Origin: an uncultured virus (IMG/VR IMGVR_UViG_3300029305_010146)
Lineage: Duplodnaviria > Heunggongvirae > Uroviricota > Caudoviricetes
Reading direction: 5' to 3' (one strand)
Length of the DNA: 64,000 nucleotides
IMG/VR virus record: IMGVR_UViG_3300029305_010146
Made by a program: the position numbers and the translations under genes. The notes beneath the pieces are model-generated. The model saw only the letters and a program-made list of their open reading frames with translations, did not search any database and was not told where the DNA came from. The stretch's first letter is position 1. Each line of letters starts with the position of its first letter. Shown one piece after another: positions 758-26,838 of the stretch.

Positions 758-789
758 TATAGGCACTCCTTTCAATGTAATAAATACAT

Positions 790-8032: not shown

Positions 8033-8599
8033 ATGACAGATGTTGAATTGGGAAAGTTTATTTCCTATATTTTAAGACACCATCCAGAAGATGTTGGAAT
8101 TAAATTGGATAAGAATGGATATGCCAATGTTTCTGATTTAATCACTAATATTAATGCAACAAAAAAATATCATAACGAACTATCTGAAGAACGATTGCAA
8201 CGAATAGTAGATACGAATGATAAAAAACGCTATTCTTACGATGAAACAGGAACAAAAATTCGTGCCGTTCAAGGTCATAGCTTTCATGTTGATGTCGCAA
8301 AAAAATCAATTCCTCCAATCACCTTATATCATGGAACTTCAAAAAGTGCTTATGATATTATTAGGAAAAAGGGTATCAACAAAATGAATAGAGATTTCGT
8401 ACATCTCTCTTCTAATAAAGATACGGCAATTGCTGTTGGAATGCGACATGCAAAGAGAAAAGAAAACCTCGTTATTTTAGAAATTGATGTAAAGAAAATG
8501 TTTTCAGACGGATACGATTTTTATGTCGCAGAAAACGGCGTATGGTTGACCGACTTTGTTCCAGCAAAATACATTGACACAATCCACACTATTCGCTAA
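8033..8599 (+). CDS. kptA: RNA 2'-phosphotransferase Tpt1/KptA
   Basis: SYILRHHP, DKKRY, IRAVQGHS, LYHGT, VHLS, NGVWLT motifs. Confidence 0.93.
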   Translation: MTDVELGKFISYILRHHPEDVGIKLDKNGYANVSDLITNINATKKYHNELSEERLQRIVDTNDKKRYSYDETGTKIRAVQGHSFHVDVAKKSIPPITLYHGTSKSAYDIIRKKGINKMNRDFVHLSSNKDTAIAVGMRHAKRKENLVILEIDVKKMFSDGYDFYVAENGVWLTDFVPAKYIDTIHTIR

Positions 8600-12950: not shown

Positions 12951-13271
12951 ATGTATATAGAGACAAGTAAAATGTATCAGAAACTATTAGATAAAGAAAC
13001 TGGTTTATTGATTCGTGATACAATCTCTCTATGCCTTTCAGTACTCCTTATCATATTAATTTTATTACTAAAACTAACACTAATTCCAATTATTCTATTG
13101 ATAATCTCTACTCTATATTTTACAATTTCTGTTTTTAGACTTGTTATGAGATTCAAATCTTACAAGAAATATAATGCTCTTTATAAAGAATCTTGTACAA
13201 AAGAGAAAGAGGTTTTGGACAAATGTCCATATTTTATCGATAGTGACGGAACACACTATTATCATTCATAG
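12951..13271 (+). CDS. Hypothetical membrane protein between nrdD and nrdG
   Basis: AGGAG RBS, two hydrophobic helices. Confidence 0.6.
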   Translation: MYIETSKMYQKLLDKETGLLIRDTISLCLSVLLIILILLLKLTLIPIILLIISTLYFTISVFRLVMRFKSYKKYNALYKESCTKEKEVLDKCPYFIDSDGTHYYHS

Positions 13272-13281
13272 GAGGAAGATT

Positions 13282-13797
13282 ATGTATTATACAGATATTT
13301 ATAAAACAGACACGACAAATGGTGTCGGTGTTAGAGTTGTTCTTTGGACATCTGGTTGTTCACACCATTGCAAGGATTGCCACAATCCGCAAACTTGGTC
13401 TCCGACAAACGGCAAACCTTATACCGAAGAAACAACAAAAGAAATTTTAACAGCACTTAACAAATCTTTTATTGACGGCATTACTCTTTCTGGCGGAGAC
13501 CCACTTTTTAGTGGAAATCTGCAGGAAATCAATAAGCTAATTAAAACCATTAGAGCAGAACTCCCCAATAGAACAATTTGGATTTACAGTGGTTTTACTT
13601 GGGAAGAAATTCACTCTTCCAATGAACCCGATATGATTTTAAGAAAAGAAATCGTAGAAAATTGTGATATTTTTGTTGACGGTCGTTTTGAACTTGCAAA
13701 GAAAAATATCAGATTAAAGTACTGTGGTTCAGAAAATCAAAAAGTCATTGATGTCAAAGAGACATTGAAAAATAACAAAATTATTTTATTTACATGA
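13282..13797 (+). CDS. nrdG: Anaerobic RNR activating radical-SAM protein
   Basis: NGVGVRVVLWTSGCSHHCKDCHN, SGGDP, DGRF, GSENQ; ATG 13282 after AGGAGG. Confidence 0.94.
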   Translation: MYYTDIYKTDTTNGVGVRVVLWTSGCSHHCKDCHNPQTWSPTNGKPYTEETTKEILTALNKSFIDGITLSGGDPLFSGNLQEINKLIKTIRAELPNRTIWIYSGFTWEEIHSSNEPDMILRKEIVENCDIFVDGRFELAKKNIRLKYCGSENQKVIDVKETLKNNKIILFT

Positions 13798-13811
13798 AAG
13801 GAGACATAGTT

Positions 13812-14258
13812 ATGTCCGAAAAAATGATGATTAATGTTAAAAAGGTTAAGAAAGATGCAAAATTGCCATTCCAAGGTTCCACAGGCGCCGCAGGTTGGGA
13901 CTTGTGTGCTTGTATTGCAGAAACAATTCTTATTCCTCCTCATTGCACAGTTAAAATCGGAACTGGTCTTGCTTTTGAGATTCCCGATGGTTACTTCGCA
14001 GCATTGTTTGCAAGAAGTGGTATTGCCACAAAACAAGGTTTAAGACCCGCTAATTGCACTGGTGTTTGCGACTCCGATTATCGTGGAGAATACATTGTTG
14101 CTATTCATAACGATAGCGACGAACAGCAGTTTGTTCATCCCGATGAAAGAATTGCACAGATGATTGTTATGCCTTATCTTCCAGTTACTTTTAACGAAGT
14201 TGAAGAACTCGATGAAACCGAACGTGGTGCTGGTGGATTTGGTTCAACAGGCAAATAA
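13812..14258 (+). CDS. dut: Trimeric dUTPase
   Basis: AGWDL, ARSG, DSDYRGE, ERIAQ, RGAGGFGSTG. Confidence 0.95.
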   Translation: MSEKMMINVKKVKKDAKLPFQGSTGAAGWDLCACIAETILIPPHCTVKIGTGLAFEIPDGYFAALFARSGIATKQGLRPANCTGVCDSDYRGEYIVAIHNDSDEQQFVHPDERIAQMIVMPYLPVTFNEVEELDETERGAGGFGSTGK

Positions 14259-14374
14259 ATACAATAATTAAACATAATCGTCCCGTATTTTCGGGACGAT
14301 TTTTATATTTTGTGGTTGACAATGGACAGAGATTGTGGTATAATAATATAAGAAAATACAAGGGAGAATAGTTT

Positions 14375-15358
14375 ATGAATATTAGAGAAAACATTGAAAA
14401 AAGAGAACATGAAATTTTAAGTCCTTATGCAGCAAAGTCTTCGGAAAGTCTCGGAAGGTATAAAAAAGATACAGTGCTTGACCCTGTAAGAACTTGTTAT
14501 GCAATTGACAGGGATAGAATTATTCATAGTTTCTCATTTAGAAAAGAAAAAGATAAAACACAAGTGTTTATTCTACCCACAAACGACCATTGTATGAATA
14601 GATTAACTCATACACTCGAAGTTGTGCAGGTTGCCAAAAGTATTGCTGTTGCTCTCAATCTTAACGAAACATTGGCAGAGGCAATTGCCCTTGGGCACGA
14701 CACAGCACACACTTGTTTTGGTCATGCAGGAGAAAGAGCACTTGATAAATTATGTAGTACTGGTTATATTCATGCAAATGAAACTTTCAGACGATTGAAT
14801 GTTATCGAAAATCTCAATCTCACAAAAGAGGTTATTGATGGTATGAAAAATCATTCTGGTCTTTCTAATAATCCTGCCGCACTAACACTTGAAGGACAGA
14901 TTGTTCCTTTCGCAGACAAAATTGCATATCTCACATCTGACTTCGAGAATGCGATTGATATGGGCATTATTGCCGATTTGCCAGATAGGGTGAAAATGAA
15001 GTTAGGTTCTACAAAGGGCAAAATTATCAACACCCTAATCACATCCATTATCAATGCTTCTTATGATAAAAAACAAATCAAGATGGAAGATAATATTTTC
15101 GAAGAAATGAAATATTTCAGAGAATTTGCATTCAACGAAATTTATTTCAGTAAAAAACTTGTTGAAGAAAATGAAAAAGCATGTCATATTATTGAACATC
15201 TATTTGAATATTATACCAAGCACCCTTGGGAAATGAGTGAGGTGTCTGACCCTGATAATGTAGAAAGAAGTGTTACTGACTACATTGCTGGAATGACAGA
15301 CACATTTGCTCTTAATGAATACGAAAAGCATTTTTCGATTACCAGACGATTTTATTAA
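14375..15358 (+). CDS. HD-domain dGTP triphosphohydrolase-like protein
   Basis: DRDRIIHS, KTQVF, RLTHTLEV, LGHD, FGHAGE, ADKIAY, DYIAGMTD. Confidence 0.88.
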   Translation: MNIRENIEKREHEILSPYAAKSSESLGRYKKDTVLDPVRTCYAIDRDRIIHSFSFRKEKDKTQVFILPTNDHCMNRLTHTLEVVQVAKSIAVALNLNETLAEAIALGHDTAHTCFGHAGERALDKLCSTGYIHANETFRRLNVIENLNLTKEVIDGMKNHSGLSNNPAALTLEGQIVPFADKIAYLTSDFENAIDMGIIADLPDRVKMKLGSTKGKIINTLITSIINASYDKKQIKMEDNIFEEMKYFREFAFNEIYFSKKLVEENEKACHIIEHLFEYYTKHPWEMSEVSDPDNVERSVTDYIAGMTDTFALNEYEKHFSITRRFY

Positions 15359-15372
15359 GGGAGGTCTCCCAC

Positions 15373-16635
15373 ATGGAGAATAACAAAAACAATATCAATG
15401 CAGAGGAAACGAAGGTTGAAGAAACCGTTGTTTCTCCCGAAAAAAAGAAAATTCCTTGGAAAGAAAAAACAAAGAAACAAAAATTTGATTCGGTTTGTAA
15501 TATTATTGGACCAATTCTTATGATTGTAGCATTTGTCTTGTGTTTTAGAACTGGTGTTCTTTACAAGGAAATGATGCATTATCAAAAAGAAGCAACGGAT
15601 TACGAATATGTTATGATGCTTCTTGAAAGTCAGTACACTGACGATTATGATAAAAATGTCGCAATGAATAATGCAATTAACGGTTATTTAAGTTCTATTG
15701 GAGATAAATATGCGTATTATCTTTCCCCAGAACAGCATGAAAAGCACGAAATGTCAAGCAATGGAGAAAAGATTGCATTAGGTATCACATTTGATGTCAA
15801 GGACGACCAGTTATATGTTTCCAATTTAGAAAAGGAAAGCGCTGCCGAAAACTCTGGCATCAAAATTGGCGACAGACTTATTTCTATTAAAGAAAAAAAT
15901 GTCGAAACTTATGCAGAGTATATTGCTTTCTTCATTAACAATTCTTTTAACGAAAACGAAGAAGTTAAAGTTGTAGTAGAAAGAGATAATGAAAATTTAG
16001 AATTCATTATTAAACCCAAAAAGACAATTGTAAAACTATCAAAGTCCGAAGTAATTGATAACATCCTCTACATTGAATTAAGTACATTTAGTGAAAAATC
16101 TTTCACAGAAATTGATGAAGTTATTAAATCCATCGAAACCAAATATGATGGCATTATCCTTGATTTGCGAGACAATGGTGGTGGTGCATTAGATTCGTTA
16201 GAGAAAATCGCTGGTATGTTTATGAAAGATAAACTTATTGCAGAATTCAGATACAAGAACGAAACCGAGAAATGTTATACAAAGGGCGGAAATGCATTTA
16301 CTGATTTACCCCTTGTTGTATTGGTAAACGGGAACAGTGCAAGTGCATCTGAATGCCTTACTGGTGCATTAAAGTGTCACGAAAGAGCAACAATTGTCGG
16401 AACTCAAACATTTGGCAAGGGAATTGGTCAATCTACATATCAATGTCCAAATGGAGGATATGTTACTTTTACCACTTCTAAATATTATTTACCAAATGGC
16501 GAATGTATCCACGAAGTAGGCATTACACCAGATATTATAGTTGAGTTACCAAAGGAAGTTGTCGATGGCGATGCAGAATTAACAAAAGATAATGATACCC
16601 AGTTACAAAAAGCAATTGAATTATTAAAAAAATAA
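15373..16635 (+). CDS. S41 carboxyl-terminal processing protease with PDZ domain
   Basis: TM anchor, DLRDNGGG, SASASE, TFGKG, GITPD. Confidence 0.9.
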   Translation: MENNKNNINAEETKVEETVVSPEKKKIPWKEKTKKQKFDSVCNIIGPILMIVAFVLCFRTGVLYKEMMHYQKEATDYEYVMMLLESQYTDDYDKNVAMNNAINGYLSSIGDKYAYYLSPEQHEKHEMSSNGEKIALGITFDVKDDQLYVSNLEKESAAENSGIKIGDRLISIKEKNVETYAEYIAFFINNSFNENEEVKVVVERDNENLEFIIKPKKTIVKLSKSEVIDNILYIELSTFSEKSFTEIDEVIKSIETKYDGIILDLRDNGGGALDSLEKIAGMFMKDKLIAEFRYKNETEKCYTKGGNAFTDLPLVVLVNGNSASASECLTGALKCHERATIVGTQTFGKGIGQSTYQCPNGGYVTFTTSKYYLPNGECIHEVGITPDIIVELPKEVVDGDAELTKDNDTQLQKAIELLKK

Positions 16636-16658
16636 TTTAAAACTTTTTAAAAAAACAC

Positions 16659-16687
16659 TTGACAAATGAAAATCAATGTGTTATAAT
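16659..16687 (+). promoter_or_regulatory. Sigma-A promoter of tRNA operon 1
   Basis: TTGACA-17-TATAAT with extended TG. Confidence 0.85.
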
Positions 16688-16728
16688 GAGTGTACAATAA
16701 AGAAATCAAGAGAAAGGGGTTCGCAATT

Positions 16729-16830
16729 ATGATGAATCTTCACAATTATGATTATAGACATCTTAATAACGATAACGAACGTAGTGCCGATTCATATTTG
16801 CGAGTCACTGCTTGTTTTTCTGCGGCCTAA
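16729..16830 (+). CDS. Leader peptide 1 (Asn/Asp-rich, 33 aa)
   Basis: AAGGGG RBS; MMNLHNYDYRHLNNDNERSADSYLRVTACFSAA. Confidence 0.75.
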   Translation: MMNLHNYDYRHLNNDNERSADSYLRVTACFSAA

Positions 16831-16856
16831 AGGCCAAAGAACTGATGCAAGATTAT

Positions 16857-16898
16857 TCCCAGTGACTGTGGCACATGCAGTTACTGGGATTTTTTATT
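16857..16898 (+). terminator. Attenuator terminator 1
   Basis: TCCCAGTGACTG/CAGTTACTGGGA stem plus T tract just before tRNA-Asp; 5' arm complementary to AGTCACTG at 16803-16810. Confidence 0.8.
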
Positions 16899-16905
16899 GA
16901 ATTAT

Positions 16906-16982
16906 GGCTCGGTAGTTCAGATGGTCAGAGCGCCAGCCTGTCACGCTGGAGGTCGTGGGTTCGAACCCCATCCGAGTCGCCA
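16906..16982 (+). tRNA. tRNA-Asp(GTC)
   Basis: Cloverleaf, CCAGC-CTGTCAC-GCTGG, CCA. Confidence 0.95.
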
Positions 16983-17115
16983 CAAATCCAAACTTAAAAA
17001 AGTCAGAACAAAGGGGATAGGAATAACCCTTCCAGAGACCTCGTGCCTGCACAGGACTTGTTTAGTGGTGTTTGGTCAATACATGTTAGTACTTTGCCAC
17101 TTTCCTATTTAATAC

Positions 17116-17192
17116 GGCTCGGTAGTTCAGATGGTTAGAGCACTGGTCTGTCACATCAGAGGTCACGGGTTCGAACCCCGTTCGAGTCGCCA
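17116..17192 (+). tRNA. tRNA-Asp(GTC)
   Basis: Cloverleaf, CTGGT-CTGTCAC-ATCAG, CCA. Confidence 0.94.
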
Positions 17193-17197
17193 TATAT

Positions 17198-17273
17198 GGG
17201 GCCATAGCTCAGTTGGGAGAGCACCAGCCTTGCAAGTTGGGGGTCGTGGGTTCAAGCCCCACTGGTTCCACCA
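17198..17273 (+). tRNA. tRNA-Ala(TGC)
   Basis: Cloverleaf with G3:U70, CCA. Confidence 0.95.
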
Positions 17274-17296
17274 CCCATTTTTATGGGATTATATAT

Positions 17297-17449
17297 TCCT
17301 CGTTAGCTCAGTAGGTAGAGCAAGCGGCTGTGGTAAATTAGCATAAGTAATGCATATTTATCTGGACGGATAAATAGGATATGAGTTCAAATCTTGTATT
17401 TACCTCCATAACCGCTGGGTCGCAGGTTCGAGTCCTGCACGGGGAGCCA
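17297..17449 (+). tRNA. tRNA-Asn(GTT) interrupted by a 77-nt insert (17332-17408) in the anticodon
   Basis: Joining 17297-17331 to 17409-17449 gives a canonical 76-nt tRNA with AGCGG-CTGTTAA-CCGCT, G discriminator and CCA. Confidence 0.85.
17332..17408 (+). ncRNA. tRNA-like cloverleaf nested inside tRNA-Asn
   Basis: GGTAAAT/ATTTACC acceptor, GCAT/ATGC D stem, 8-bp anticodon-position stem, TTCAAAT T loop, TCCA end. Confidence 0.8.
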
Positions 17450-17464
17450 TGAGATTTGGCCAAA

Positions 17465-17707
17465 AACATCTTTAATAAAAGTTAAAATATTTGCAAAAGC
17501 ACAAAAATATTGCATAATAAAATTATAATAGATAAACTTACAACCAATTAGGTAAGTTTTGCCAAGGGTAAGTTAAATAATATCTATTCCAAAATGTATC
17601 CCATTAGGGTAGAGGTAATGTGTCTTGCCTTAATGGTGGGTTATCCCATCATTAGAAGCACCCACTTCAGAAAAATCGTTAGAATTTTTAAGTGGTGTGT
17701 AGTTCAC
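17465..17707 (+). mobile_element. Possible non-autonomous IS200/IS605-type remnant
   Basis: 3' end GAAGCACCCACTT...AAGTGGTGTGTAGTTCAC resembles TnpB-element right ends; no ORF; left boundary uncertain. Confidence 0.4.
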
Positions 17708-17759
17708 AGGCCAAATTCTCAACCTATTAAATATAACTCCATAATAATGGAGTTTATAT

Positions 17760-17838
17760 CTCCCGATAACTCAGTCTGGTAGAGTGCTTAAATATTTTAT
17801 TTAAGAGGTCGTGGGTTCAAATCCCATAAAGGAGACCA
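17760..17838 (+). pseudogene. Degenerate tRNA gene, anticodon unassignable
   Basis: Good D arm, T arm and CCA, but three acceptor mismatches and an aberrant CTTAAAT-ATTTT-ATTTAAG arm. Confidence 0.65.
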
Positions 17839-18141
17839 AGTCCAAACGCCTCTGCCCAAGGTTGCAAGCGGACCACTTGGACTGCTTGAAAAAAAGTTAA
17901 AATCCTGCTTTTGTAGGACCGACTCTTTGGGATTGATTACCCCAAAAAGGGTTGCTCCAGTTTTGGTTGAACCGCATTTCCAACTCAACAGTCCTAATCA
18001 AACTTTTGTTTTGGAATACTTAATTTACAATATTGTAGCGGGAATATCGATTACATCAAAAAATTCTTTGTTATTTGGATTACAAAATTTTTTATTTTTT
18101 CATTAAATCGATTTCAATATTCGCAATATCGTATTTTATAT

Positions 18142-18226
18142 GCAAGATTGGTGGAATTGGCAGACACGCTGGTTTTAGGCACCAGTACCGTAAGGTTTGT
18201 GGGTTCAAGTCCCACATCTTGTACCA
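18142..18226 (+). tRNA. tRNA-Leu(TAG)
   Basis: Type II cloverleaf, CTGGT-TTTAGGC-ACCAG, CCA. Confidence 0.93.
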
Positions 18227-18348
18227 TGTGCTTCGGCACACCGACAACATAGTTGTCAGTCCAGTGTACACAAAGGACACCATCCAACAGACTTAATGAT
18301 GGAGAGGAGAAACCTCGTGAAACTTTTAGTCAGTTATACACTTCCGAC

Positions 18349-18415
18349 GGCACCGACACATTGATAGGTGAGGTTTTTCGGGAAAGTTTAACCGAGTTCG
18401 AGTCTCGGCGGTGCA
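18349..18415 (+). ncRNA. Short tRNA-like RNA without CCA
   Basis: GCACCG/CGGTGC stem stacked on CCGAG-TTCGAGT-CTCGG T arm; no canonical anticodon loop. Confidence 0.5.
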
Positions 18416-18458
18416 TTAGGGTAAAGAGTGTATGACAAAACTGCCCCCACAAAAATAT

Positions 18459-18536
18459 GTCCCGTTAGCTCAGTTGGAATAGAGCACCGCTCTTCTAAAG
18501 CGGGTGTCATTGGTTCGAGTCCAATACGGGATGCCA
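18459..18536 (+). tRNA. tRNA-Arg(TCT)
   Basis: CCGCT-CTTCTAA-AGCGG, CCA. Confidence 0.94.
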
Positions 18537-18572
18537 TGAAGAAAATATTTTTTCAAATTATAAAAAAAGTAG

Positions 18573-18601
18573 TTGACAAACCTCAAATTATGTGATATAA
18601 T
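18573..18601 (+). promoter_or_regulatory. Sigma-A promoter of tRNA operon 2
   Basis: TTGACA-17-TATAAT with extended TG. Confidence 0.85.
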
Positions 18602-18622
18602 CACAATGTAAATAAGACCTAT

Positions 18623-18709
18623 GCAGAATTGGTGGAATAGGCAGACACGCCGTCTTGAGGGGGCGGTGCCAGTAATGGCGTATGAGTTCAAGTCTCATAT
18701 TCTGCACCA
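18623..18709 (+). tRNA. tRNA-Leu(GAG)
   Basis: Type II cloverleaf, CCGTC-TTGAGGG-GGCGG, CCA; lies upstream of leader 2. Confidence 0.93.
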
Positions 18710-18758
18710 TAAACAAATTATTAAACTATCAAATTTTTTAGAAAAGGAGTAAATCAAA

Positions 18759-18872
18759 ATGAAGTTCAATATCACTTTTGTACATGAATATGAATATCGC
18801 TATGAACACAGGATTTCAAACATTGAGTCTGTGTCTATTCGTCGTGCAAAAAATGGCGATATTGACCACTAA
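18759..18872 (+). CDS. Leader peptide 2 (His/Glu/Tyr run, 37 aa)
   Basis: AAGGAG RBS; MKFNITFVHEYEYRYEHRISNIESVSIRRAKNGDIDH. Confidence 0.8.
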   Translation: MKFNITFVHEYEYRYEHRISNIESVSIRRAKNGDIDH

Positions 18873-18900
18873 AAAGGTTTACTTCAAAAAGTAGAAGTTC

Positions 18901-18945
18901 AATGCCTGATGACTCAATGTTAGAGTTGTCAGGCATTTTTATTTT
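18901..18945 (+). terminator. Attenuator terminator 2
   Basis: AATGCCTGATGACTC/GAGTTGTCAGGCATT stem plus T tract; 18911-18921 is the exact complement of 18819-18829. Confidence 0.85.
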
Positions 18946-18953
18946 ATCAATAT

Positions 18954-19065
18954 AGGGGAGTATGCAAGTGGCCAAAGCAAGGAGCGGTGAACTCCTGTTG
19001 TTTTAGACTTGGGTGCACATGTGGTCTTTACAACTTCGTTGGTTCAAATCCAACCTCCCCTACCA
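18954..19065 (+). tRNA. Atypical Tyr-body tRNA with GTG at anticodon position and about 40-nt variable arm
   Basis: AGGGGAG/CTCCCCT acceptor, loop CGGTGAA (G33), A discriminator, CCA. Confidence 0.6.
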
Positions 19066-19071
19066 ACATAT

Positions 19072-19159
19072 GGGGCAGTATGCATAGCGGCGATTGCAGC
19101 GGGCTGTAAACCCGTGACATTAAGAAACACCGTTGGTTCGAGTCCAACCTGCCTCACCA
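19072..19159 (+). tRNA. tRNA-Tyr(GTA)
   Basis: GCGGG-CTGTAAA-CCCGT, long variable arm, CCA. Confidence 0.9.
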
Positions 19160-19166
19160 TCAGCAT

Positions 19167-19242
19167 GGTGCTATCGACAAGTGGTTTAAGTCGTCGCCCT
19201 TTCAAGGCGGAGTCACGGGTTCGAATCCCGTTAGCATCACCA
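19167..19242 (+). tRNA. tRNA-Glu(TTC)
   Basis: TCGCC-CTTTCAA-GGCGG, CCA. Confidence 0.93.
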
Positions 19243-19246
19243 ATAT

Positions 19247-19330
19247 GGGAGAGTAGCAAATCGGCAACTGCGGCGGTCTGTAAAACCGTTCCTTATAGGG
19301 TAGTGGGGTCGGCACCCACCTCTCCCACCA
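19247..19330 (+). tRNA. tRNA-Tyr(GTA) with variant T loop GTCGGCA
   Basis: GCGGT-CTGTAAA-ACCGT, CCA. Confidence 0.85.
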
Positions 19331-19334
19331 ATAT

Positions 19335-19409
19335 GGCACTTTGGTCAAGCGGTTAAGACACTGCCCTTTCACGGCAGTAACACGGGTTCGAATCCCGTAA
19401 GTGTCACCA
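19335..19409 (+). tRNA. tRNA-Glu(TTC)
   Basis: CTGCC-CTTTCAC-GGCAG, CCA. Confidence 0.94.
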
Positions 19410-19487
19410 GGTAGACGTAGTTCAGTTGGTTAGAACGCCAGATTGTGGCTCTGGAGGTCGTGGGTTCGAATCCCATCGTCTACCCCA
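19410..19487 (+). tRNA. tRNA-His(GTG)
   Basis: G-1:C73, CCAGA-TTGTGGC-TCTGG, CCA. Confidence 0.94.
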
Positions 19488-19490
19488 TAT

Positions 19491-19566
19491 GGCACTTTCG
19501 TCTAAAGGTCAGGACACGGGACTTTCACTCCCGAAATGTTGGGTTCGAGACCCACAAGTGTCACCA
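19491..19566 (+). tRNA. tRNA-Glu(TTC)
   Basis: CGGGA-CTTTCAC-TCCCG, CCA; slightly irregular T stem. Confidence 0.88.
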
Positions 19567-19571
19567 TATAT

Positions 19572-19647
19572 GGTGTAGATGATGTAAAGGTTAGCATAAG
19601 GTGTTGTGACCACCTTTGCATGAGTTCAAGTCTCATTCTTCACCCCA
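19572..19647 (+). tRNA. tRNA-His(GTG)
   Basis: G-1:C73, AGGTG-TTGTGAC-CACCT, CCA; one acceptor mismatch. Confidence 0.85.
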
Positions 19648-19653
19648 TCATAT

Positions 19654-19738
19654 AGGCAGATATGCAAGCGGTCAAAGCGGGCGCACTGTAAATGCGTTAC
19701 TTTTTGTTTCGTGAGTTCGAATCTCACTCTGCCTACCA
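19654..19738 (+). tRNA. tRNA-Tyr(GTA)
   Basis: GCGCA-CTGTAAA-TGCGT, CCA. Confidence 0.9.
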
Positions 19739-19743
19739 AATAT

Positions 19744-19818
19744 GGCGCTATGGTCAAGTGGTTAAGACACCGCCCTTTCACGGCGGTATCACGGGTTCGA
19801 ATCCCGTTAGCGTCACCA
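19744..19818 (+). tRNA. tRNA-Glu(TTC)
   Basis: CCGCC-CTTTCAC-GGCGG, CCA. Confidence 0.94.
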
Positions 19819-19959
19819 TAACAAGTTCGCTTGTGATTTAAAAAGTGTATCCCATAACTTTTCAACTGGAGAAACGAAGCAAATGGGAATATGTCTTTGT
19901 TTCTGGTTTTAGTCGGCAGCGATTGGTTCCTTAACCAAAAACTGATTACTGCCATGCAT

Positions 19960-20036
19960 GGTGCTTTCGTCTAACTGGTCAAGGATGTAAGACTCTCAAT
20001 CTTACGATACGGGTTCAAGTCCCGTAAGCATCACCA
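19960..20036 (+). tRNA. tRNA-Glu(CTC)
   Basis: TAAGA-CTCTCAA-TCTTA, CCA. Confidence 0.9.
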
Positions 20037-20037
20037 A

Positions 20038-20150
20038 GTTGTCGTAGCGGCAATTATGATTTCATCGTATAACGGTTAATACAACAAACTTGAAATTTGT
20101 CCATATAGGTTCGAATCCTATTTATAATCATAATATTTATTCACGACAAC
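20038..20150 (+). ncRNA. tRNA-like RNA (TGA loop) with extended closing stem, no CCA
   Basis: D arm GTAT/ATAC, ACAAA-CTTGAAA-TTTGT, ATAGG-TTCGAAT-CCTAT, closed by ATTATGATT/AATCATAAT and GTTGTCGT/ACGACAAC. Confidence 0.6.
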
Positions 20151-20158
20151 TTTTATAT

Positions 20159-20235
20159 GTGCCAATAGCTCAATGGACGAGAGTGGACGGCTACGAACCG
20201 TCAGGTTGCAGGTTCGAGTCCTGCTTGGCATGCCA
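20159..20235 (+). tRNA. tRNA-Arg(ACG)
   Basis: GACGG-CTACGAA-CCGTC, CCA. Confidence 0.93.
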
Positions 20236-20333
20236 AAACAATGGAGACCAAAAATTAGTCTCCATTTTTTCATTGACAATAAAAGAAAAATCATCTATGC
20301 TATGTTTAACATAAATGAAAGGAATGATTTCTT

Positions 20334-21545
20334 ATGAAATTTAATTGCAAATCTCGCAAAGGTTTCACACTTATCGAACTTCTCGTGGTTATAGGCATCC
20401 TTGCTGTGTTGGCAGCAATTGCTATTCCAAGTGTTGCTGGACTTATTGATAGAGCGAATGTTTCTGCTGACAATACTAATGCCAATGAATATACAAACGC
20501 AATTGAAAGATTTACATCGGAGTATGAACTCTATTGCCAAGATGTAGCATCTGGCAAAATAAAGGATGCGGATAATGATGGTAAACCCGACAATATGGAT
20601 GCAGCACAAGGTCGAGTTTTTAATGTTACTAAAGTAGTTACTCGTGCAGATATTACCGCACTCGAAAGTACTGGACTTGGTGATGCAATGATTAGTAGAG
20701 ATACAAAATATCCTCTTAATGGCATTACTCTCAAATCCATTATTGAGAACTATACAAAAACTAGTTCTGTCACATTCGAACCCAAACAAAGCGATAAAGT
20801 TTATTGGTATTCTCCAGATTGTGGTTTAGTAGTCGTTGCTAATCCTAATTCATCTAAAGATGCTCTTAATAATCTTGTAATTTCGGGTAAAGATGCAAAA
20901 GGCAATACATTAGGTTCTGGAACCAATTGGGTTGATGTTACGAACTACAGTCTTATCAAGATTATATGTGGTAATGGTGCTGACGGTTTGCATTACCACA
21001 ATGACGAATTGTTCACAGGTATTTGCGATAGTGATGGCGAATGGTATGACAATGGCGTACAAGGACCAATTTGCTTCTTATCGGGCACAAAAATCACCAT
21101 GGCAAATGGAACACAAAAAAATATTGAAGATATTATTGTAGGCGATAAGGTAGTATCTTATAATGTAGAAACTAAAATTTTCTATATTACAACTGTCTGT
21201 AACACCTTTGTTAGAGAAACAGAAGTTTATTACACAATAAGATTCGATGATGGAACAGAACTCAATTTAACTGGATGCCATCCGCTATTAACACCAAAAG
21301 GATTCGAAAACATTACTGGTGTCCATGAAAGATTAAATATGGTTGATGCACTTGATGTTGGTGATGAAGTTATTTCTGTCAATGATACCAAAAAAATAGT
21401 TTCTATTGAAAAAATAATAGAAAAAACAACTGTATATAATTTCAATGTTATAGACGACGAAGAAATTATCATTGGTAAAGATAATGATTCTAATGACACA
21501 TATATTGCAAACGGAATTGTATCACACAATGCAGATTATTCTTGA
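20334..21545 (+). CDS. Type IV pilin-like protein with C-terminal Hint (BIL-type) domain
   Basis: KG|FTLIELLVV prepilin motif; Hint CFLSGTKITMANG...TGCHPLLT...VYNFNV...IVSHN at 21072-21530. Confidence 0.88.
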   Translation: MKFNCKSRKGFTLIELLVVIGILAVLAAIAIPSVAGLIDRANVSADNTNANEYTNAIERFTSEYELYCQDVASGKIKDADNDGKPDNMDAAQGRVFNVTKVVTRADITALESTGLGDAMISRDTKYPLNGITLKSIIENYTKTSSVTFEPKQSDKVYWYSPDCGLVVVANPNSSKDALNNLVISGKDAKGNTLGSGTNWVDVTNYSLIKIICGNGADGLHYHNDELFTGICDSDGEWYDNGVQGPICFLSGTKITMANGTQKNIEDIIVGDKVVSYNVETKIFYITTVCNTFVRETEVYYTIRFDDGTELNLTGCHPLLTPKGFENITGVHERLNMVDALDVGDEVISVNDTKKIVSIEKIIEKTTVYNFNVIDDEEIIIGKDNDSNDTYIANGIVSHNADYS

Positions 21546-21794
21546 TAAATACTATGTTTCTGACTTTTCGTTATTATAAACAAAACTATATCACATAATT
21601 ATAATACAATAGGTACTTATATACCAAAAACAACTCTTTATTTCTATAAAGAGTTGTTTTTTATTCTCGCTATATTTTTTGATTTATACTTTTCGTTTAT
21701 AATATTATTCAAAACCCCATTGACAAAATCCAACCTTGCAAAACCCCGCAAAATACCATATAATATATCTATCATACAAAAGAGGTGAAACATA

Positions 21795-22277
21795 ATGCTT
21801 TTTGGTAAAAAATCTAAAAATAAACTAATCAAAAAAGTAAAATATAACAAAGAATACGATTGGTACGAAGGCAAAGCACATCTTGATTTATTCGATACAG
21901 ACATTGATGTTATTATCCATAATGGTGTCGATGAGCAATATGCCGAAAATTGTATAGAGCATATAAATAATCTTTCTCCATCTCTTAAAAACTATCTTGC
22001 CGAAAGACTATATAAATATTATGACTTTATAAGAAGAGAGTGCGACGATGTGGAAGATATATCATTCGATGATATTCTAAAACATGTATATCCCCTTAAT
22101 GTATCCATAGAAAAACCAGAAGAATCACTTATCGCATATTCTATCGAATGCGGTTGTGACTGGGAAGAAGAACACGGAGCAGAAATAATCATCAAAGACA
22201 ATGAAATATTGTTTGTCGGAGAATTTGTGGGACTTGGTCCTTGGGCAGATAAAGAATGCTATGAAACTGTTTTCTAA
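21795..22277 (+). CDS. Hypothetical acidic protein (CDWEEEHG motif)
   Basis: GAGGTG RBS; 160 aa. Confidence 0.65.
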   Translation: MLFGKKSKNKLIKKVKYNKEYDWYEGKAHLDLFDTDIDVIIHNGVDEQYAENCIEHINNLSPSLKNYLAERLYKYYDFIRRECDDVEDISFDDILKHVYPLNVSIEKPEESLIAYSIECGCDWEEEHGAEIIIKDNEILFVGEFVGLGPWADKECYETVF

Positions 22278-23158: not shown

Positions 23159-24145
23159 ATGAAATTTAATTACAAATCTCGCAAAGGTTTCACTCTTATT
23201 GAACTTCTTGTAGTCATTGGTATTTTAGCAGTTCTCGCTGCTATTGCTATTCCATCAGTTGCTGGTCTCATTGACAGAGCAAACGTTTCTGCTGACAATA
23301 CCAATGCGAGCGAGATGACGAATGCTATGGAGAGATTTGTATCTGAATATGAATTATTCAGACAAGATATTGCATCGGGCACATTTGATAAAGACAATAT
23401 GGATGCCACACAAAGCAGAGTGTACAATGTTACAAAAGCAGAAACTCGTACCGACATTGAGAAACTCGAAAGTAAAGAAGGTCTAAATGGTATTCGCATC
23501 GATATCGATAACAAATATGCACAAAACCACGAAACTGCAAAAGCAGTAATGCGGAATTATATGAAGACCAGTTCTTCCACTTTCGAACCAAAACAGAGCG
23601 ATATGACTTATTGGTATAATACAGTCACTGGTTATACTGTTGTTGCAGAAAAAGATACAGATACTTCAACCCTATATACTAAACTACCAACACAAGTAGA
23701 ATATGTGAACAACACTCCTGCATCAATTAATGAATGGATTGACTTATCTTCTACTGTTGTCATCCCAGATATTGCTTTAATTCATGTGCATAAATGGCCA
23801 ACTCTGGATGCAGAAGGCAAACATCAAATATGCATGCATTATTCTGGTGAAATTCCAGACGATTCGATTGGTGAATTATTCTTAATTTGGGATTTAGGCG
23901 AATATGAACAAGGTGAACTACCAACACTAAACTATACGAATTCTTATAGAGAACCATGGAAGATGACTGGCAGCAATCCGCCGTGCAATGGAGAATATAA
24001 TGTGAGGTTGCATGGATACAAACCAGAACAATTAGATAAAGTAGAATACTTTAGATGGTGTTACAAATACAACGAAAATGGTCAAACAAAGTTTGTGTAC
24101 TCACCAATTTATGCTTTTGCATTCAATGATTTACCAAACGAATAA
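23159..24145 (+). CDS. Type IV pilin-like protein
   Basis: Same KG|FTLIELLVVIGILAVLAAIAIPSV N-terminus; unrelated C-terminal domain. Confidence 0.88.
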   Translation: MKFNYKSRKGFTLIELLVVIGILAVLAAIAIPSVAGLIDRANVSADNTNASEMTNAMERFVSEYELFRQDIASGTFDKDNMDATQSRVYNVTKAETRTDIEKLESKEGLNGIRIDIDNKYAQNHETAKAVMRNYMKTSSSTFEPKQSDMTYWYNTVTGYTVVAEKDTDTSTLYTKLPTQVEYVNNTPASINEWIDLSSTVVIPDIALIHVHKWPTLDAEGKHQICMHYSGEIPDDSIGELFLIWDLGEYEQGELPTLNYTNSYREPWKMTGSNPPCNGEYNVRLHGYKPEQLDKVEYFRWCYKYNENGQTKFVYSPIYAFAFNDLPNE

Positions 24146-25353: not shown

Positions 25354-26838
25354 ATGAAATTTAATGCAAAATCTCGTAAAGGTTTCACCTTGATTGAACT
25401 CCTCGTGGTTATTGGCATTCTTGCCGTTCTCGCTGCAATCGCTATCCCTTCCGTTGCTGGTTTAATCGACAGAGCAAACCAGTCTTCCGATAACACAAAT
25501 GCAAAAGAGATGACAAATGCCATCGAGCGCTTCACTTCTGAATACGAACTATACTGTCAAGATGTAGCATCTGGCACATTAAATGTAACAGACCTCGATT
25601 CTGCACAAGGAAGGGTATTCAACGTAACGGAGATTGAAACTCGAAAAGGTGTAGAGATGACCGAAAACCTCGGTTATACACACGACATAGTAGCAGTTGA
25701 CAGAGATACAAAATATCCAGTTAACGAAGTTACTGCAAAAAAGGTTATCGAAAACTTTATGAAGACCAGTTCTTCCACCTTTGAACCAAAGCAGAGTGAC
25801 TGCAGTTATTACTATTCTCCACAGGTTGGTAAAGTAGTTGTTGCTAAAACTGGTAGTACCATTGCAGAATTAAATAAAATTGCTATGGAAGATGAAGCAG
25901 AGTATGCAACAATTAACAATGGCGAAATCATTGAATGGATTAACCTTTCCGTTAATGCAGGAAAAGAAGTAAATGACTGGACCTATGTTAATGCAGCAAC
26001 CCCAACGAACAATCAATATAAAGAATTAGGTACAAAAGCACCTACTTTTAATATTGAGTGGAGTGCAAAGAATGAAGCAACTGGTCAACCAGTTACGGTT
26101 GGTGTTTCTATTTCTAATTCAAATTATTCTGGTAATGGCACAACTCCTTGTACGATGACGAATGTCCCAATGGGCAAATATGCATTGGTAGCAACTTATG
26201 CTGGTAATGAGTACAAATTCAACTTGCTTGTTTACCAAGAAGGAATTCAAACATTCAAGTTAACAATTCCAGGAACTAATATTTCTGTTGGTTCTGATAA
26301 CGATACATATGTACCAAGTGGCGGTTCTACACCAAGCACCCCAAGTACTCCCGAACCACCAATTCAAAGTTGTCAACATACAAATACCAAAGTAATCAAT
26401 GCAAAAGAGGCAACCACTGATGAAAAAGGTTATACTGGCGATACTTGGTGCAACGACTGTAACACTAAAATTGCAAGTGGTACAGAAATTAATTTCTTAC
26501 ATACAGTAACGATTGATTTTACAAATGGTTATTCTGTTAATCAAGTTTCGCGTAGTGATTTGGTTTATTTTTCAATGGATGGCGGTAATACATGGGTTGA
26601 CCTTGCAACACTTCTACCACAAGAAATATCCCCTTATCAAAGAACAACTATAACAATCGAGTGTTCTCAAATTAAAGCAGATATACGATATATGAATGGC
26701 CCAGGATATCAATTTTTGTCTAATGATTTAGGTGTTAACTTTGTGTGTTTGGCAATGAATACCGTAACAGATAATTTGATATTAACAGAAGATATTGTAA
26801 TTACAATTTCATTTGACCACTCTGGTGGTGCCAATTAA
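25354..26838 (+). CDS. Type IV pilin-like protein
   Basis: Prepilin motif; Pro-rich linker and CQH...GYTGDTWCNDC module shared with 61381; ends HSGGAN. Confidence 0.88.
   Translation: MKFNAKSRKGFTLIELLVVIGILAVLAAIAIPSVAGLIDRANQSSDNTNAKEMTNAIERFTSEYELYCQDVASGTLNVTDLDSAQGRVFNVTEIETRKGVEMTENLGYTHDIVAVDRDTKYPVNEVTAKKVIENFMKTSSSTFEPKQSDCSYYYSPQVGKVVVAKTGSTIAELNKIAMEDEAEYATINNGEIIEWINLSVNAGKEVNDWTYVNAATPTNNQYKELGTKAPTFNIEWSAKNEATGQPVTVGVSISNSNYSGNGTTPCTMTNVPMGKYALVATYAGNEYKFNLLVYQEGIQTFKLTIPGTNISVGSDNDTYVPSGGSTPSTPSTPEPPIQSCQHTNTKVINAKEATTDEKGYTGDTWCNDCNTKIASGTEINFLHTVTIDFTNGYSVNQVSRSDLVYFSMDGGNTWVDLATLLPQEISPYQRTTITIECSQIKADIRYMNGPGYQFLSNDLGVNFVCLAMNTVTDNLILTEDIVITISFDHSGGAN

What the first reader, a model, noticed from the sequence alone, without database searches (positions are those of the whole stretch)
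17297..17449. A tRNA inside a tRNA: 77-nt cloverleaf inserted in the tRNA-Asn anticodon
The insert (17332-17408) sits between anticodon positions 35 and 36 (GT|T). It starts exactly at its own acceptor G1 and ends exactly at its own CCA, with an 8-bp stem and a non-canonical loop at the anticodon position. Precise removal restores a flawless tRNA-Asn(GTT). It is far too short for a group I or II intron and shows no obvious bulge-helix-bulge. It is the only Asn tRNA behind the Asn-rich leader, which hints at function. Inference: RNase P plus a 3' cut could excise the insert as an intron, and an RNA ligase could join the halves. No ligase is visible in this window, although Tpt1 is. Alternatively it shields the anticodon or is a dead fusion.
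Basis: partly seen in the sequence, partly recalled or inferred. Interest (0 to 1): 0.88.

Follow-up and report, generated by a model that had tools for sequence, protein, structure and literature searches.

The report
tRNA-shaped intron inside a tRNA-Asn gene
A tRNA-Asn gene is split inside its anticodon by a 77-base tRNA-shaped insert that belongs to a widespread, conserved family of such inserts in phage-type tRNA genes, and its ends sit where the normal tRNA-trimming enzymes cut, which suggests an undescribed way of splicing tRNA.

Summary
Window 17297-17449 is a tRNA-Asn(GTT) body split between anticodon bases 35 and 36 by a 77-nt insert (17332-17408). The insert passes Rfam's tRNA model at 39.9 bits and ends in CCA. 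It is not a one-off or an assembly error. A diverged relative in another run carries it unchanged, and a further relative lacks exactly these 77 bases.

I found 20 distinct relatives of the insert. All share its D-arm and T-loop, and the acceptor and T stems covary strongly. Nineteen sit in anticodon loops of Asn, Gln, Thr, Lys, Leu and Gly tRNA genes, at sites 34/35, 35/36 or 36/37.

Every insert starts at its own position +1. It ends after its discriminator base when it has no CCA, or after CCA. Cutting by that rule restores a normal tRNA in 19 of 19 cases.

My best reading (about 0.45) is an intron cut out by RNase P and an RNase Z-type enzyme and sealed by an Rnl1-type RNA ligase. No RNA data exist, and no ligase lies in these 64 kb. 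Tpt1 looks unrelated.

Devoto et al. 2019 noted a tRNA-like intron in Lak phages, and this scan noted tRNA-shaped inserts on other DNA. I found the junction rule in no paper.

The parts
17297..17331 (+). Exon 1 of tRNA-Asn(GTT): acceptor 5' strand, D arm, anticodon stem 5' strand, and loop bases C32 U33 G34 U35
   Evidence: Sequence. After the insert is removed, ARAGORN calls a 76-nt tRNA-Asn(gtt).
17332..17408 (+). 77-nt tRNA-shaped insert (proposed intron), a member of the conserved family modelled as R1
   Evidence: Rfam tRNA 39.9 bits over 17332-17405. R1 gives 63.7 bits, but this sequence was used to build R1. Family covariation.
17332..17338 (+). Insert acceptor stem, 5' strand (GGTAAAT). 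It pairs with 17398-17404 (ATTTACC).
   Evidence: parse. In the family all 7 acceptor pairs show changes on both sides.
17341..17353 (+). Insert D arm GCAT-AAGTA-ATGC, the family signature
   Evidence: Its invariance is partly due to the search pattern.
17355..17376 (+). Central hairpin: 8-bp stem TATTTATC/GATAAATA with the 6-nt loop TGGACG. It is not an anticodon loop.
   Evidence: Pair table. This arm varies freely in length and sequence across the family.
17381..17397 (+). Insert T arm ATGAG-TTCAAAT-CTTGT
17405..17408 (+). Insert discriminator T73 plus CCA. The 3' junction lies directly after A76.
17409..17449 (+). Exon 2 of tRNA-Asn: U36 A37 A38, anticodon stem 3' strand, variable loop, T arm, acceptor 3' strand, G73, CCA

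Best explanation
The 77-nt insert is a tRNA-shaped intron. It belongs to a mobile family that lives in the anticodon loops of tRNA genes of large phages and similar elements. The signals for its removal lie in the insert itself, which imitates the acceptor/T-arm half (and here also the D arm) of a tRNA.

Inferred steps:
1. RNase P cuts at the insert's position +1. This leaves exon 1 with a 3'-OH.
2. An RNase Z-type activity (or another enzyme that makes tRNA 3' ends) cuts after the insert's CCA. In relatives without CCA it cuts after the discriminator base. This leaves exon 2 with a 5'-phosphate.
3. The two halves of tRNA-Asn stay paired through the acceptor and anticodon stems.
4. An ATP-dependent RNA ligase of the Rnl1 type seals the nick between U35 and U36. 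No end-healing enzyme and no Tpt1 is needed.

Shown: the anatomy, the family, the covariation, the junction rule, the intact exons, and the presence/absence polymorphism at the DNA level. Inferred: transcription, both cuts, and the ligation.
For: 1. The fold is under selection. Across 20 distinct family members, 96.6% of cells pair in the acceptor, D and T stems, against 67.9% in shuffles (0 of 500 reach it) and 35-53% when partners are slid. All 7 acceptor pairs change on both sides.

2. The junctions follow the insert, not the host. Hosts are Asn, Gln, Thr, Lys, Leu and Gly tRNA genes, and sites are 34/35, 35/36 and 36/37. Yet every insert starts at +1 of its 7-position acceptor helix and ends 1 nt (no CCA) or 4 nt (NCCA) after position 72. 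Cutting by that rule gives a standard tRNA in 19 of 19 host-embedded members.

3. These two end points are the ones reported for some RNase Z enzymes. The abstract of PMC7479834 says archaeal enzymes cleave just after the discriminator in CCA-less precursors and just after CCA in CCA-containing ones. The abstract of PMC1540738 says T. maritima tRNase Z cuts after A76. The abstract of PMC5291269 says RNase E makes mature CCA ends in one step.

4. The insert's end type follows the host gene's style. 9 of 13 CCA-type inserts lie in tRNA genes that encode CCA, against 0 of 6 CCA-less inserts (one-sided Fisher p 0.008; the rows are not phylogenetically independent).

5. The base before the insert is U in 15 of 20 members. 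From memory, bacterial RNase P prefers U at -1.

6. The same phage carries several interrupted tRNA genes. In complete record G003, 3 of 6 tRNA genes are interrupted. G002 has at least three CCA-type inserts.

7. The Rnl1-type ligase family PF09511 scores over its cut-off in 5 of 10 carrier records, and in 3 of the 4 that are at least 99% complete. It is found in 0 of 5 records without short inserts.

8. A contig of run X10 joins 17331 directly to 17409, so a relative lacks exactly the insert.

9. Group I introns occupy the same GT|T site of tRNA-Asn in other phages. Of the 7 long inserts I submitted, 4 score over Rfam's Intron_gpI gathering score.

10. The operon's leader peptide has 5 Asn codons among 33, and this is the only Asn gene behind it. 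A second leader (VHEYEYRYEH) precedes the Tyr/Glu/His array.
Against: No RNA evidence exists: no RNA run holds this DNA.

No RNA ligase was found among the 54 window ORFs scanned with Pfam or the 28 scanned with PHROGs. The rest of the replicon, at least 679 kb, could not be searched.

The ligase association is not significant (p 0.08), and four of the five controls are fragments (14-25% complete). One complete carrier, G006, has no Rnl1 hit.

RNase Z of B. subtilis is strongly inhibited by CCA (abstract of PMC7479834), and the host is unknown.

Three other short insert types have 4-nt tails that are not CCA: AAAG in L031, AGGA in L047 and AGAT in L023. Two of them lie in genes that do not encode CCA. 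The RNase Z rule does not explain these.

The Lak phage introns carry an extra 5' hairpin ahead of their tRNA-like part (Table S6). RNase P alone cannot set their 5' junction.

The predicted minimum-energy fold of the whole 153 nt (-49.2 kcal/mol) replaces the inner acceptor stem with another helix. The nested double cloverleaf evaluates to -42.2 kcal/mol.

Whether RNase P can reach a site tethered 4 nt from the outer anticodon stem is untested.

One member (L079/L083) has only 4 of 7 acceptor pairs.
Confidence: 0.45

Rival explanations
1. Dead gene. A tRNA-like mobile DNA unit landed in the anticodon of tRNA-Asn and destroyed it. RNase P cuts the transcript, the halves are degraded, and nothing is rejoined.
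For: No ligase is seen in the window. A close relative does without the insert. One family member has a decayed acceptor stem (L079/L083, 4 of 7 pairs). The intact exons could simply mean that the insertions are recent.
Against: 19 of 19 hosts from very different tRNA genes give a flawless tRNA after removal. In complete phage G003, half of the tRNA genes (3 of 6) carry such inserts. CCA-less inserts end exactly after N73, which a copy of a mature RNA would not do. This is the sole Asn gene behind an Asn-rich leader. In X8 there are 0 differences over 166 nt where about 4 were expected (P 0.018).
Confidence: 0.2
2. The insert is the product. The gene exists to make a stable, CCA-ended, anticodon-less tRNA-shaped RNA, for example a decoy or regulator for tRNA-binding enzymes or defence nucleases. 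The outer tRNA-Asn is only a folding and processing scaffold that is sacrificed.
For: The D arm and T loop are kept more strictly than RNase P recognition should require, although the search pattern enforced most of that. A free-standing relative with the same D arm exists and is called tRNA-Ile(tat) by ARAGORN (L094). From memory, phages are known to make tRNA-like stable RNAs (T4 species 1 and 2). Earlier notes of this scan list several.
Against: A scaffold need not give back a canonical 7-nt anticodon loop with U33 and a purine at 37, yet all 19 hosts do. The central arm is unconstrained. Smaller insert types keep only the acceptor/T-arm minihelix. This reading can be true together with splicing.
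Confidence: 0.15
3. It is an intron, but other enzymes remove it. A dedicated or host endonuclease measures from the minihelix and leaves 2',3'-cyclic phosphate and 5'-OH ends. RtcB, or a healing-and-sealing ligase with Tpt1, then joins them.
For: Tpt1 is encoded at 8033-8599 (Pfam E 3e-49). The non-CCA 4-nt tails of other insert types fit a ruler-type nuclease better than RNase Z.
Against: Tpt1 is found in 0 of 5 carrier records and RtcB in 0 of 5. No bulge-helix-bulge forms. No ribozyme or intron family matches 17297-17449 at E up to 1.
Confidence: 0.12
4. Assembly artefact or chimera.
For: None found.
Against: An independent run (X8) holds the identical nested gene in a diverged backbone. 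Twenty distinct homologous inserts lie in other contigs.
Confidence: 0.01

Closest known systems
'Enigmatic' tRNA introns of Lak megaphages (Devoto et al. 2019, PMC6784885; I read passages of the main text and part 4 of Table S6)
   Same: Short inserts lie in anticodon loops of tRNA genes of a very large replicon. The Thr(TGT) intron holds an Rfam tRNA match. tRNA-finding software places the intron one base off. Alleles with and without the intron exist. The tRNA-like part lies at the intron's 3' end.
   Different: Lak introns have a 5' hairpin and an A-rich linker ahead of the tRNA-like part, so their 5' junction is not at +1 of that part. They do not contain the D-arm word ATAAGTAAT (0 occurrences in the supplements). 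No mechanism or junction rule was proposed. The window uses the standard genetic code.
Group I introns in bacterial and phage tRNA anticodon loops
   Same: They occupy the same site. Other phage tRNA-Asn genes carry group I introns at exactly GT|T. A U precedes the 5' junction. Alleles with and without the intron occur.
   Different: The insert is 77 nt and has no catalytic core. It gives no Intron_gpI match and cannot splice itself.
tRNA-like processing signals cut by RNase P and RNase Z: mascRNA of MALAT1, plant mitochondrial t-elements, mitochondrial tRNA punctuation (recalled, not read here)
   Same: A cloverleaf without a decoding role marks both cut sites for the tRNA end-maturation enzymes. 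Rfam's mascRNA model gives weak hits on tRNAs of this array.
   Different: In those systems the flanks are not rejoined. Here the flanks are the two halves of a tRNA and would need ligation.
Protein-dependent tRNA splicing of archaea and eukaryotes (bulge-helix-bulge, EndA/Sen, RtcB or Trl1 with Tpt1)
   Same: The intron lies in the anticodon loop. The exon halves are held together by the tRNA body. A protein ligase is needed.
   Different: There is no bulge-helix-bulge. The sites are 34/35 to 36/37, not 37/38. The predicted ends are 3'-OH and 5'-phosphate.
T4 Pnkp/Rnl1 repair of anticodon-loop breaks (recalled)
   Same: A phage Rnl1 ligase seals a 3'-OH/5'-phosphate nick in an anticodon loop. 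Rnl1 genes occur in carrier phages.
   Different: In T4 that pathway repairs damage made by a host nuclease. It is not known to act in intron removal.

Membership tests
Canonical decoding tRNA (tested on the insert) | Cloverleaf that passes the Rfam tRNA model | tested here: met
   39.9 bits against a gathering score of 29.
Canonical decoding tRNA (tested on the insert) | 5-bp anticodon stem with a 7-nt loop, U33 and a purine at 37 | tested here: not met
   The stem is 8 bp and the loop is the 6-nt UGGACG. Default ARAGORN does not call the insert as a tRNA.
tRNA-Asn (tested on the outer gene) | GUU anticodon and a complete cloverleaf once the insert is removed | tested here: met
   ARAGORN calls tRNA-Asn(gtt), 76 nt. 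The role of G73 as an Asn identity element is recalled, not tested.
Group I intron | Catalytic core P3-P9 (Rfam RF00028) and a length of about 200 nt or more | tested here: not met
   The insert is 77 nt. No RF00028 match at E up to 1 in 16600-20400.
Archaeal/eukaryal bulge-helix-bulge intron | Two 3-nt bulges that hold the splice sites, separated by a 4-bp helix | tested here: not met
   Neither the minimum-energy fold nor the nested cloverleaf has this motif. No such pairing is kept across the family by my inspection.
Small self-cleaving ribozymes | Match to a known ribozyme family | tested here: not met
   No ribozyme family matches at E up to 1. An unknown ribozyme is not excluded.
Lak-type 'enigmatic' tRNA introns (Devoto 2019) | Short non-group-I insert in the anticodon loop of a tRNA gene of a giant replicon, with a tRNA-like 3' module | tested here: met
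Lak-type 'enigmatic' tRNA introns (Devoto 2019) | 5' hairpin plus A-rich linker ahead of the tRNA-like module, and sequence kinship | tested here: not met
   The insert starts directly at +1. The signature word is absent from Table S6.
tRNA-shaped insert family defined here (model R1) | 7-position acceptor helix starting at the first insert base; D arm G[CT]AT-AAGTA-AT[GA]C; T loop TTCAANT; end after N73 or after NCCA | tested here: met
   The 63.7 bits come from a training member. Members not used in training, L035 (53.1 bits) and G002 189621-189685 (40.5 bits), are also found.
Substrate of RNase P and RNase Z | Cleavage at -1/+1 and after N73 or after CCA | not testable with these tools
   Only the structural prerequisites are present: a stack of 7 + 5 bp, a T loop and NCCA.

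The most novel reading that the evidence does not exclude
A third route of tRNA splicing. A mobile family of tRNA-shaped introns lets the universal tRNA end-trimming enzymes, RNase P and RNase Z, cut them out of anticodon loops. The exon ends left behind (3'-OH and 5'-phosphate) can be sealed directly by an Rnl1-type ligase. Because the signals sit in the intron, the family can colonise any tRNA gene at 34/35, 35/36 or 36/37. The excised CCA-ended RNA may have a job of its own.
Probability: 0.4. Interest if true: 0.92.

Novelty: new variant of a known kind. Interest (0 to 1): 0.8.

Why it matters
Bacterial and phage tRNA introns are generally taken to be self-splicing group I introns. Enzyme-dependent tRNA splicing is regarded as a trait of archaea and eukaryotes.

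This family of ORF-less inserts of about 60-125 nt has boundaries that coincide with tRNA 5' and 3' maturation sites, and it often occurs beside phage RNA ligase genes. That would give a testable explanation for the 'enigmatic' megaphage tRNA introns. It would also suggest a housekeeping role for phage Rnl1 beyond repair, and a simple route by which protein-dependent tRNA splicing could arise.

There is a practical side. tRNA finders miss such genes or mislabel them: here Asn was called His, and in relatives Gln was called Glu and Leu was called Phe. tRNA inventories of large phages are therefore skewed.

Tried and rejected
No whole genome is held for the window.

No RNA holder was listed for 13000-22000, so expression and splicing could not be examined.

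The exact 22-mer of the insert's 5' end has no match in viral contigs. Looking for relatives of the replicon with the S41 peptidase gave only 29-38% identical Clostridia-type and other genomes and nothing in viral contigs. The 1349-aa ATPase gave nothing in viral contigs either. blastn of the array against phage records gave only generic tRNA matches. G001, which carries the closest insert relative, shares no protein with the window at E 1e-5.

Readings rejected:
- Group I intron, bulge-helix-bulge intron and known ribozymes.
- tRNA-His identity. This is an ARAGORN placement artefact.
- A link to Tpt1 or RtcB.

The mini-ORF inside the 190-nt CCA-ended insert of L018/L053 matches HNH only weakly (E 0.015, 15.9 bits, below the cut-off of 21.4). 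I do not count it as a homing endonuclease.

An alternative helix, UGUGG/CCAUA, across the junctions is not kept in relatives by my inspection.

Of the pattern scans, 3 of 7 viral hits and 12 of 34 metagenome hits lay in coding-like sequence with no tRNA around them, and I dropped them.

Five literature searches found no paper that describes tRNA-shaped introns bounded by tRNA ends, apart from Devoto et al. 2019 and its preprint. Papers outside the held library may exist.

Full report
WHAT IS THERE

Window 17297-17449 reads as follows. Exon 1 is TCCTCGT-TA-GCTC-AGTAGGTA-GAGC-A-AGCGG-CTGT. A 77-nt insert follows (17332-17408). Exon 2 is TAA-CCGCT-GGGTC-GCAGG-TTCGAGT-CCTGC-ACGGGGA-G-CCA.

ARAGORN in its default mode lists 26 tRNA genes in the window and none here. 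With its intron option it finds a 153-nt gene with a 77-nt intron, but places the intron after position 36 and so calls it tRNA-His(gtg). That is an artefact of the program's fixed intron position. Devoto et al. 2019 report the same one-base offset for a Lak phage tRNA-Thr intron. The body has G73 and T at -1, so it lacks the bacterial tRNA-His features as I recall them. Removing exactly 17332-17408 gives a 76-nt tRNA-Asn(gtt) by ARAGORN. No shifted pair of boundaries gives the same product, because the base after each junction differs (G and T).

The insert is tRNA-shaped:
- acceptor stem GGTAAAT/ATTTACC;
- D arm GCAT-AAGTA-ATGC;
- central arm, an 8-bp stem with the 6-nt loop TGGACG;
- GGAT;
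- T arm ATGAG-TTCAAAT-CTTGT;
- T73 and CCA.

Rfam's tRNA model scores it at 39.9 bits against a gathering score of 29. No intron or ribozyme family matches the region at E up to 1.

Thermodynamic folding of the 153 nt keeps all outer arms plus the inner D, central and T arms. It replaces the inner acceptor stem with a UGUGG/CCAUA helix across the junctions (-49.2 kcal/mol, z -2.75). The full double cloverleaf evaluates to -42.2 kcal/mol. That alternative helix is not kept in relatives by my inspection.

CONTEXT

The gene lies in a tRNA array: 27 tRNA genes in two clusters, and this is the only Asn gene. The window is AT-rich (35.5% G+C). Its genes include:
- ThyX, Tpt1 (8033-8599), formate-tetrahydrofolate ligase, NrdD/NrdG, dUTPase, an S41 peptidase;
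- pilin-like proteins with Hint domains and two DNA methylases;
- a CCA-adding enzyme, Sir2, PTH2, and a PcfJ-like protein;
- an IscB gene with its HEARO RNA;
- a 1349-aa protein that the protein atlas places near DUF87/TraG-type ATPases.

The same proteins occur on a contig of 678,911 bp. No whole genome is held, and I found no close relative in GTDB genomes or IMG/VR. The replicon is therefore a very large element of animal, mostly ruminant, gut samples. Whether it is a huge phage or another kind of giant element stays open.

No RNA ligase turned up among the 54 ORFs scanned with Pfam or the 28 scanned with PHROGs.

NOT AN ARTEFACT, AND POLYMORPHIC

I laid the contigs of four runs on 16300-18800.

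Run X8 has a 1371-nt contig that covers 17291-17456 with no difference. In the same contig tRNA-Ala is replaced by 675 other letters, and the flanking pieces differ at 48 of 1985 positions. About 4 differences were expected in 166 nt, so P(0) is 0.018. For the 77 nt alone P(0) is 0.16.

Run X10 has a 343-nt contig of depth 15. Its positions 265-313 lie on 17457-17409 and its last 30 letters lie on the far side of a joint from 17331 to 17409. The record positions are contiguous, so it joins the exons directly and lacks exactly the 77 nt. The table itself marks the stretch between as 'not known'; direct joining is my inference from the coordinates. Its depth and its 3' flank match the X10 relative of this locus.

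A FAMILY

A degenerate pattern for the tRNA-Asn 5' half followed by a non-T base found 42 viral loci. Parsed, they fall into these groups:
- 12 are other, uninterrupted tRNAs.
- 14 carry inserts of 183-211 nt at the same GT|T site. Of the 7 I submitted, 4 score over Rfam's group I gathering score.
- 14 carry short inserts of 48-85 nt.
- 1 carries a 190-nt CCA-ended insert with a 51-codon ORF. The ORF matches HNH only weakly, E 0.015 and below the cut-off.
- 1 (L055) I could not parse.

One short insert (L036) shares the window insert's D arm, T arm, T73 and CCA, with compensatory changes at acceptor pairs 2:71 and 4:69.

I then scanned with a pattern made of that D arm and T loop. It found 7 viral loci, of which 4 are real and 3 are one coding sequence. 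It found 34 metagenome loci, of which 22 are real and 12 were dropped as coding-like with no tRNA around them.

Together with the window this gives 20 distinct sequences. On their alignment the acceptor, D and T stems pair in 96.6% of cells, against 67.9% in shuffles (0 of 500 reach it) and 35-53% with slid partners. The covariation score is 0.764 against 0.189, and all seven acceptor pairs change on both sides. The last two T-stem pairs and most of the D arm were fixed by the search pattern. The acceptor stem was not.

The central arm varies from a few bases to more than 40, with loops of about 3-9 nt. As a rule it is not an anticodon arm.

One member (L094) stands alone between ORFs, has a 7-nt loop, and is called tRNA-Ile(tat) by ARAGORN. 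With model R1 the best-scoring ordinary tRNAs are phage tRNA-Thr genes with the same GCAT/ATGC D stem, AGAT variable loop and T73. The inserts therefore probably descend from a real tRNA lineage.

THE JUNCTION RULE

The 19 host-embedded members sit in:
- Asn(GTT) at 35/36;
- Gln(TTG) at 34/35 or 35/36;
- Thr(TGT) at 35/36 or 36/37;
- Lys(TTT) at 34/35;
- Leu(CAA) at 34/35;
- Gly(TCC) at 36/37.

In every case the insert begins at position +1 of its own 7-position acceptor helix. It ends either 1 nt after position 72 (6 members, no CCA; 5 of these have G1 opposite A72 and U73) or 4 nt after it (13 members, NCCA, all with 7 of 7 acceptor pairs).

Applying 'cut before +1; cut after CCA if present, otherwise after N73' gives a standard tRNA by ARAGORN in 19 of 19.

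The base before the insert is U in 15, C in 4 and G in 1 of the 20.

CCA-type inserts lie in tRNA genes that themselves encode CCA in 9 of 13 cases. CCA-less inserts do so in 0 of 6. The one-sided Fisher p is 0.008, but the rows are not independent, since some are close relatives.

MECHANISM

By established knowledge, which I recall rather than tested, RNase P cuts at -1/+1 of an acceptor/T-arm stack and leaves a 3'-OH on the leader. RNase Z leaves a 5'-phosphate on the trailer.

The two 3' end points seen here are those reported for RNase Z enzymes:
- Archaeal enzymes cut just after the discriminator in CCA-less precursors and just after CCA in CCA-containing ones (abstract of PMC7479834).
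- T. maritima tRNase Z cuts after A76 (abstract of PMC1540738, search listing).
- RNase E can also make a mature CCA end in one cut (abstract of PMC5291269, search listing).

The resulting nick between U35 and U36 would need only a ligase that joins 3'-OH to 5'-phosphate.

The Rnl1 family PF09511 scores over its cut-off in 5 of 10 records that carry short inserts, and in 3 of the 4 that are at least 99% complete. It is found in 0 of 5 records with group I introns or no insert, of which only one is complete. The p value is 0.08, so this is suggestive only. Tpt1 and RtcB are each found in 0 of 5 carriers.

Complete phage records carry several such genes. G003 has 6 tRNA genes, 3 of them interrupted (47, 65 and 122 nt). 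G002 has CCA-ended inserts in Leu(TAA), Gln and a third gene. The identities of those hosts are my parse by the junction rule, not ARAGORN's labels.

WHAT DOES NOT FIT

- Three other short insert types (L023, L031, L047) have 4-nt tails that are not CCA.
- Lak introns carry a 5' hairpin and linker ahead of their tRNA-like part (Table S6).
- B. subtilis RNase Z is strongly inhibited by CCA, and the host is unknown.
- One complete carrier, G006, has no Rnl1 hit.
- One member, L079/L083, has a poor acceptor stem.
- No RNA data could be had.

SIDE EVIDENCE FOR FUNCTION

The array is an operon behind a perfect promoter (16659-16687). A 33-codon leader ORF follows (16729-16830, MMNLHNYDYRHLNNDNERSADSYLRVTACFSAA, 5 Asn codons), and then a strong terminator (16857-16889). 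A segment of the leader can pair with the terminator's 5' arm.

A second unit has a promoter at 18573-18601, the ORF MKFNITFVHEYEYRYEHRISNIESVSIRRAKNGDIDH at 18759-18872, and a terminator at 18901-18937. It precedes the Tyr-Glu-His repeats.

In both units the leader codons mirror the tRNAs that follow. This makes sense only if the Asn gene yields working tRNA-Asn.

COMPARISON AND NOVELTY

The closest published case is the Lak megaphage 'enigmatic introns', one of which 'may encode a tRNA' (Devoto et al. 2019; I read main-text passages and part 4 of Table S6). No mechanism was offered there, and its architecture differs.

Five searches of the held literature found no description of tRNA-shaped introns whose ends coincide with tRNA ends.

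Earlier agents of this scan noted tRNA-shaped or hairpin inserts in phage tRNA genes on other DNA. None overlaps this sequence.

I class the finding as a new variant of a known, unexplained kind. The proposed route would be new if shown.

VERDICT

Confidence in the full RNase P / RNase Z / ligase mechanism is about 0.45. Confidence that the insert is removed at the RNA level by some route is about 0.6.

Noticed in passing
window 16659-16900: A perfect sigma-70-type promoter (TTGACA-17-TATAAT with TG) is followed by a 33-codon leader ORF rich in Asn, Asp, Tyr and His codons. A strong terminator follows (-21.9 kcal/mol, z -5.6), and a leader segment can pair with its 5' arm. It looks like a trp-style attenuator in front of a tRNA operon whose tRNAs read the leader's codons.
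   Followed up: partly
window 18573-18937: A second unit of the same design: a perfect promoter, tRNA-Leu(GAG), a ribosome-binding site, the ORF MKFNITFVHEYEYRYEHRISNIESVSIRRAKNGDIDH, and a 15-bp terminator. It lies directly ahead of the Tyr-Glu-Tyr-Glu-His-Glu-His-Tyr-Glu array at 19072-19818. I do not recall any description of tRNA operons attenuated by leader peptides made of their own codons, and I did not search the literature for it.
   Followed up: partly
window 17760-17835: A tRNA-like gene (Rfam 35.3 bits) that ARAGORN misses. Its acceptor stem has two mismatches at the base, and a 6-bp anticodon stem carries the loop TATTTTA, with A instead of U at position 33. Relatives in runs X8 and X10 differ here at 3-4 positions.
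   Followed up: no
window 2-1051: An IscB-type gene (RRXRR plus HNH domains, minus strand, runs off the window's start) with its HEARO RNA at 807-1051 (130 bits).
   Followed up: no
window 19072-19818: A tandemly amplified block of tRNA genes (3 Tyr, 4 Glu(TTC), 2 His), all with encoded CCA and spacers of 1-7 nt.
   Followed up: no
window 20334-21545, 23159-24145, 25354-26838, 61381-63321: Four proteins with type IV pilin N-terminal methylation motifs. Two of them (20334-21545 and 61381-63321) end in Hint/intein-like domains.
   Followed up: no
L018 1533-1688 (minus strand), same place as L053: A 190-nt insert at the same GT|T site of a phage tRNA-Asn. It has a 7-bp closing helix, a T arm and a GCCA end, and holds a 51-codon ORF with CxxC...CxxCH that matches HNH only weakly (E 0.015). 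It may be a family member carrying a remnant of a homing endonuclease.
   Followed up: partly
L023, L031, L047 and their copies (viral loci): 48-49-nt minihelix inserts (acceptor helix plus T arm, with little or no D arm) at GT|T of phage tRNA-Asn. G1 is mismatched with position 72 (A72 in L031 and L047, G72 in L023), and the 4-nt tails AAAG, AGGA and AGAT are not CCA. Their 3' junction is not explained by the RNase Z rule.
   Followed up: partly
L024 1337-1408: A skipping-rope RNA (Rfam 51 bits) lies directly after an interrupted tRNA-Asn in a complete 167-kb phage record.
   Followed up: no
G002 189586-191645 and G003 105615-110975: tRNA finders mislabel interrupted genes. ARAGORN calls Gln 'Glu' and Leu(CAA) 'Phe'. 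It calls one gene 'Gln' and another 'Pro', and by the junction rule both may be Lys(TTT). G002 and G003 each also carry a homologous CCA-ended insert of about 122 nt.
   Followed up: partly
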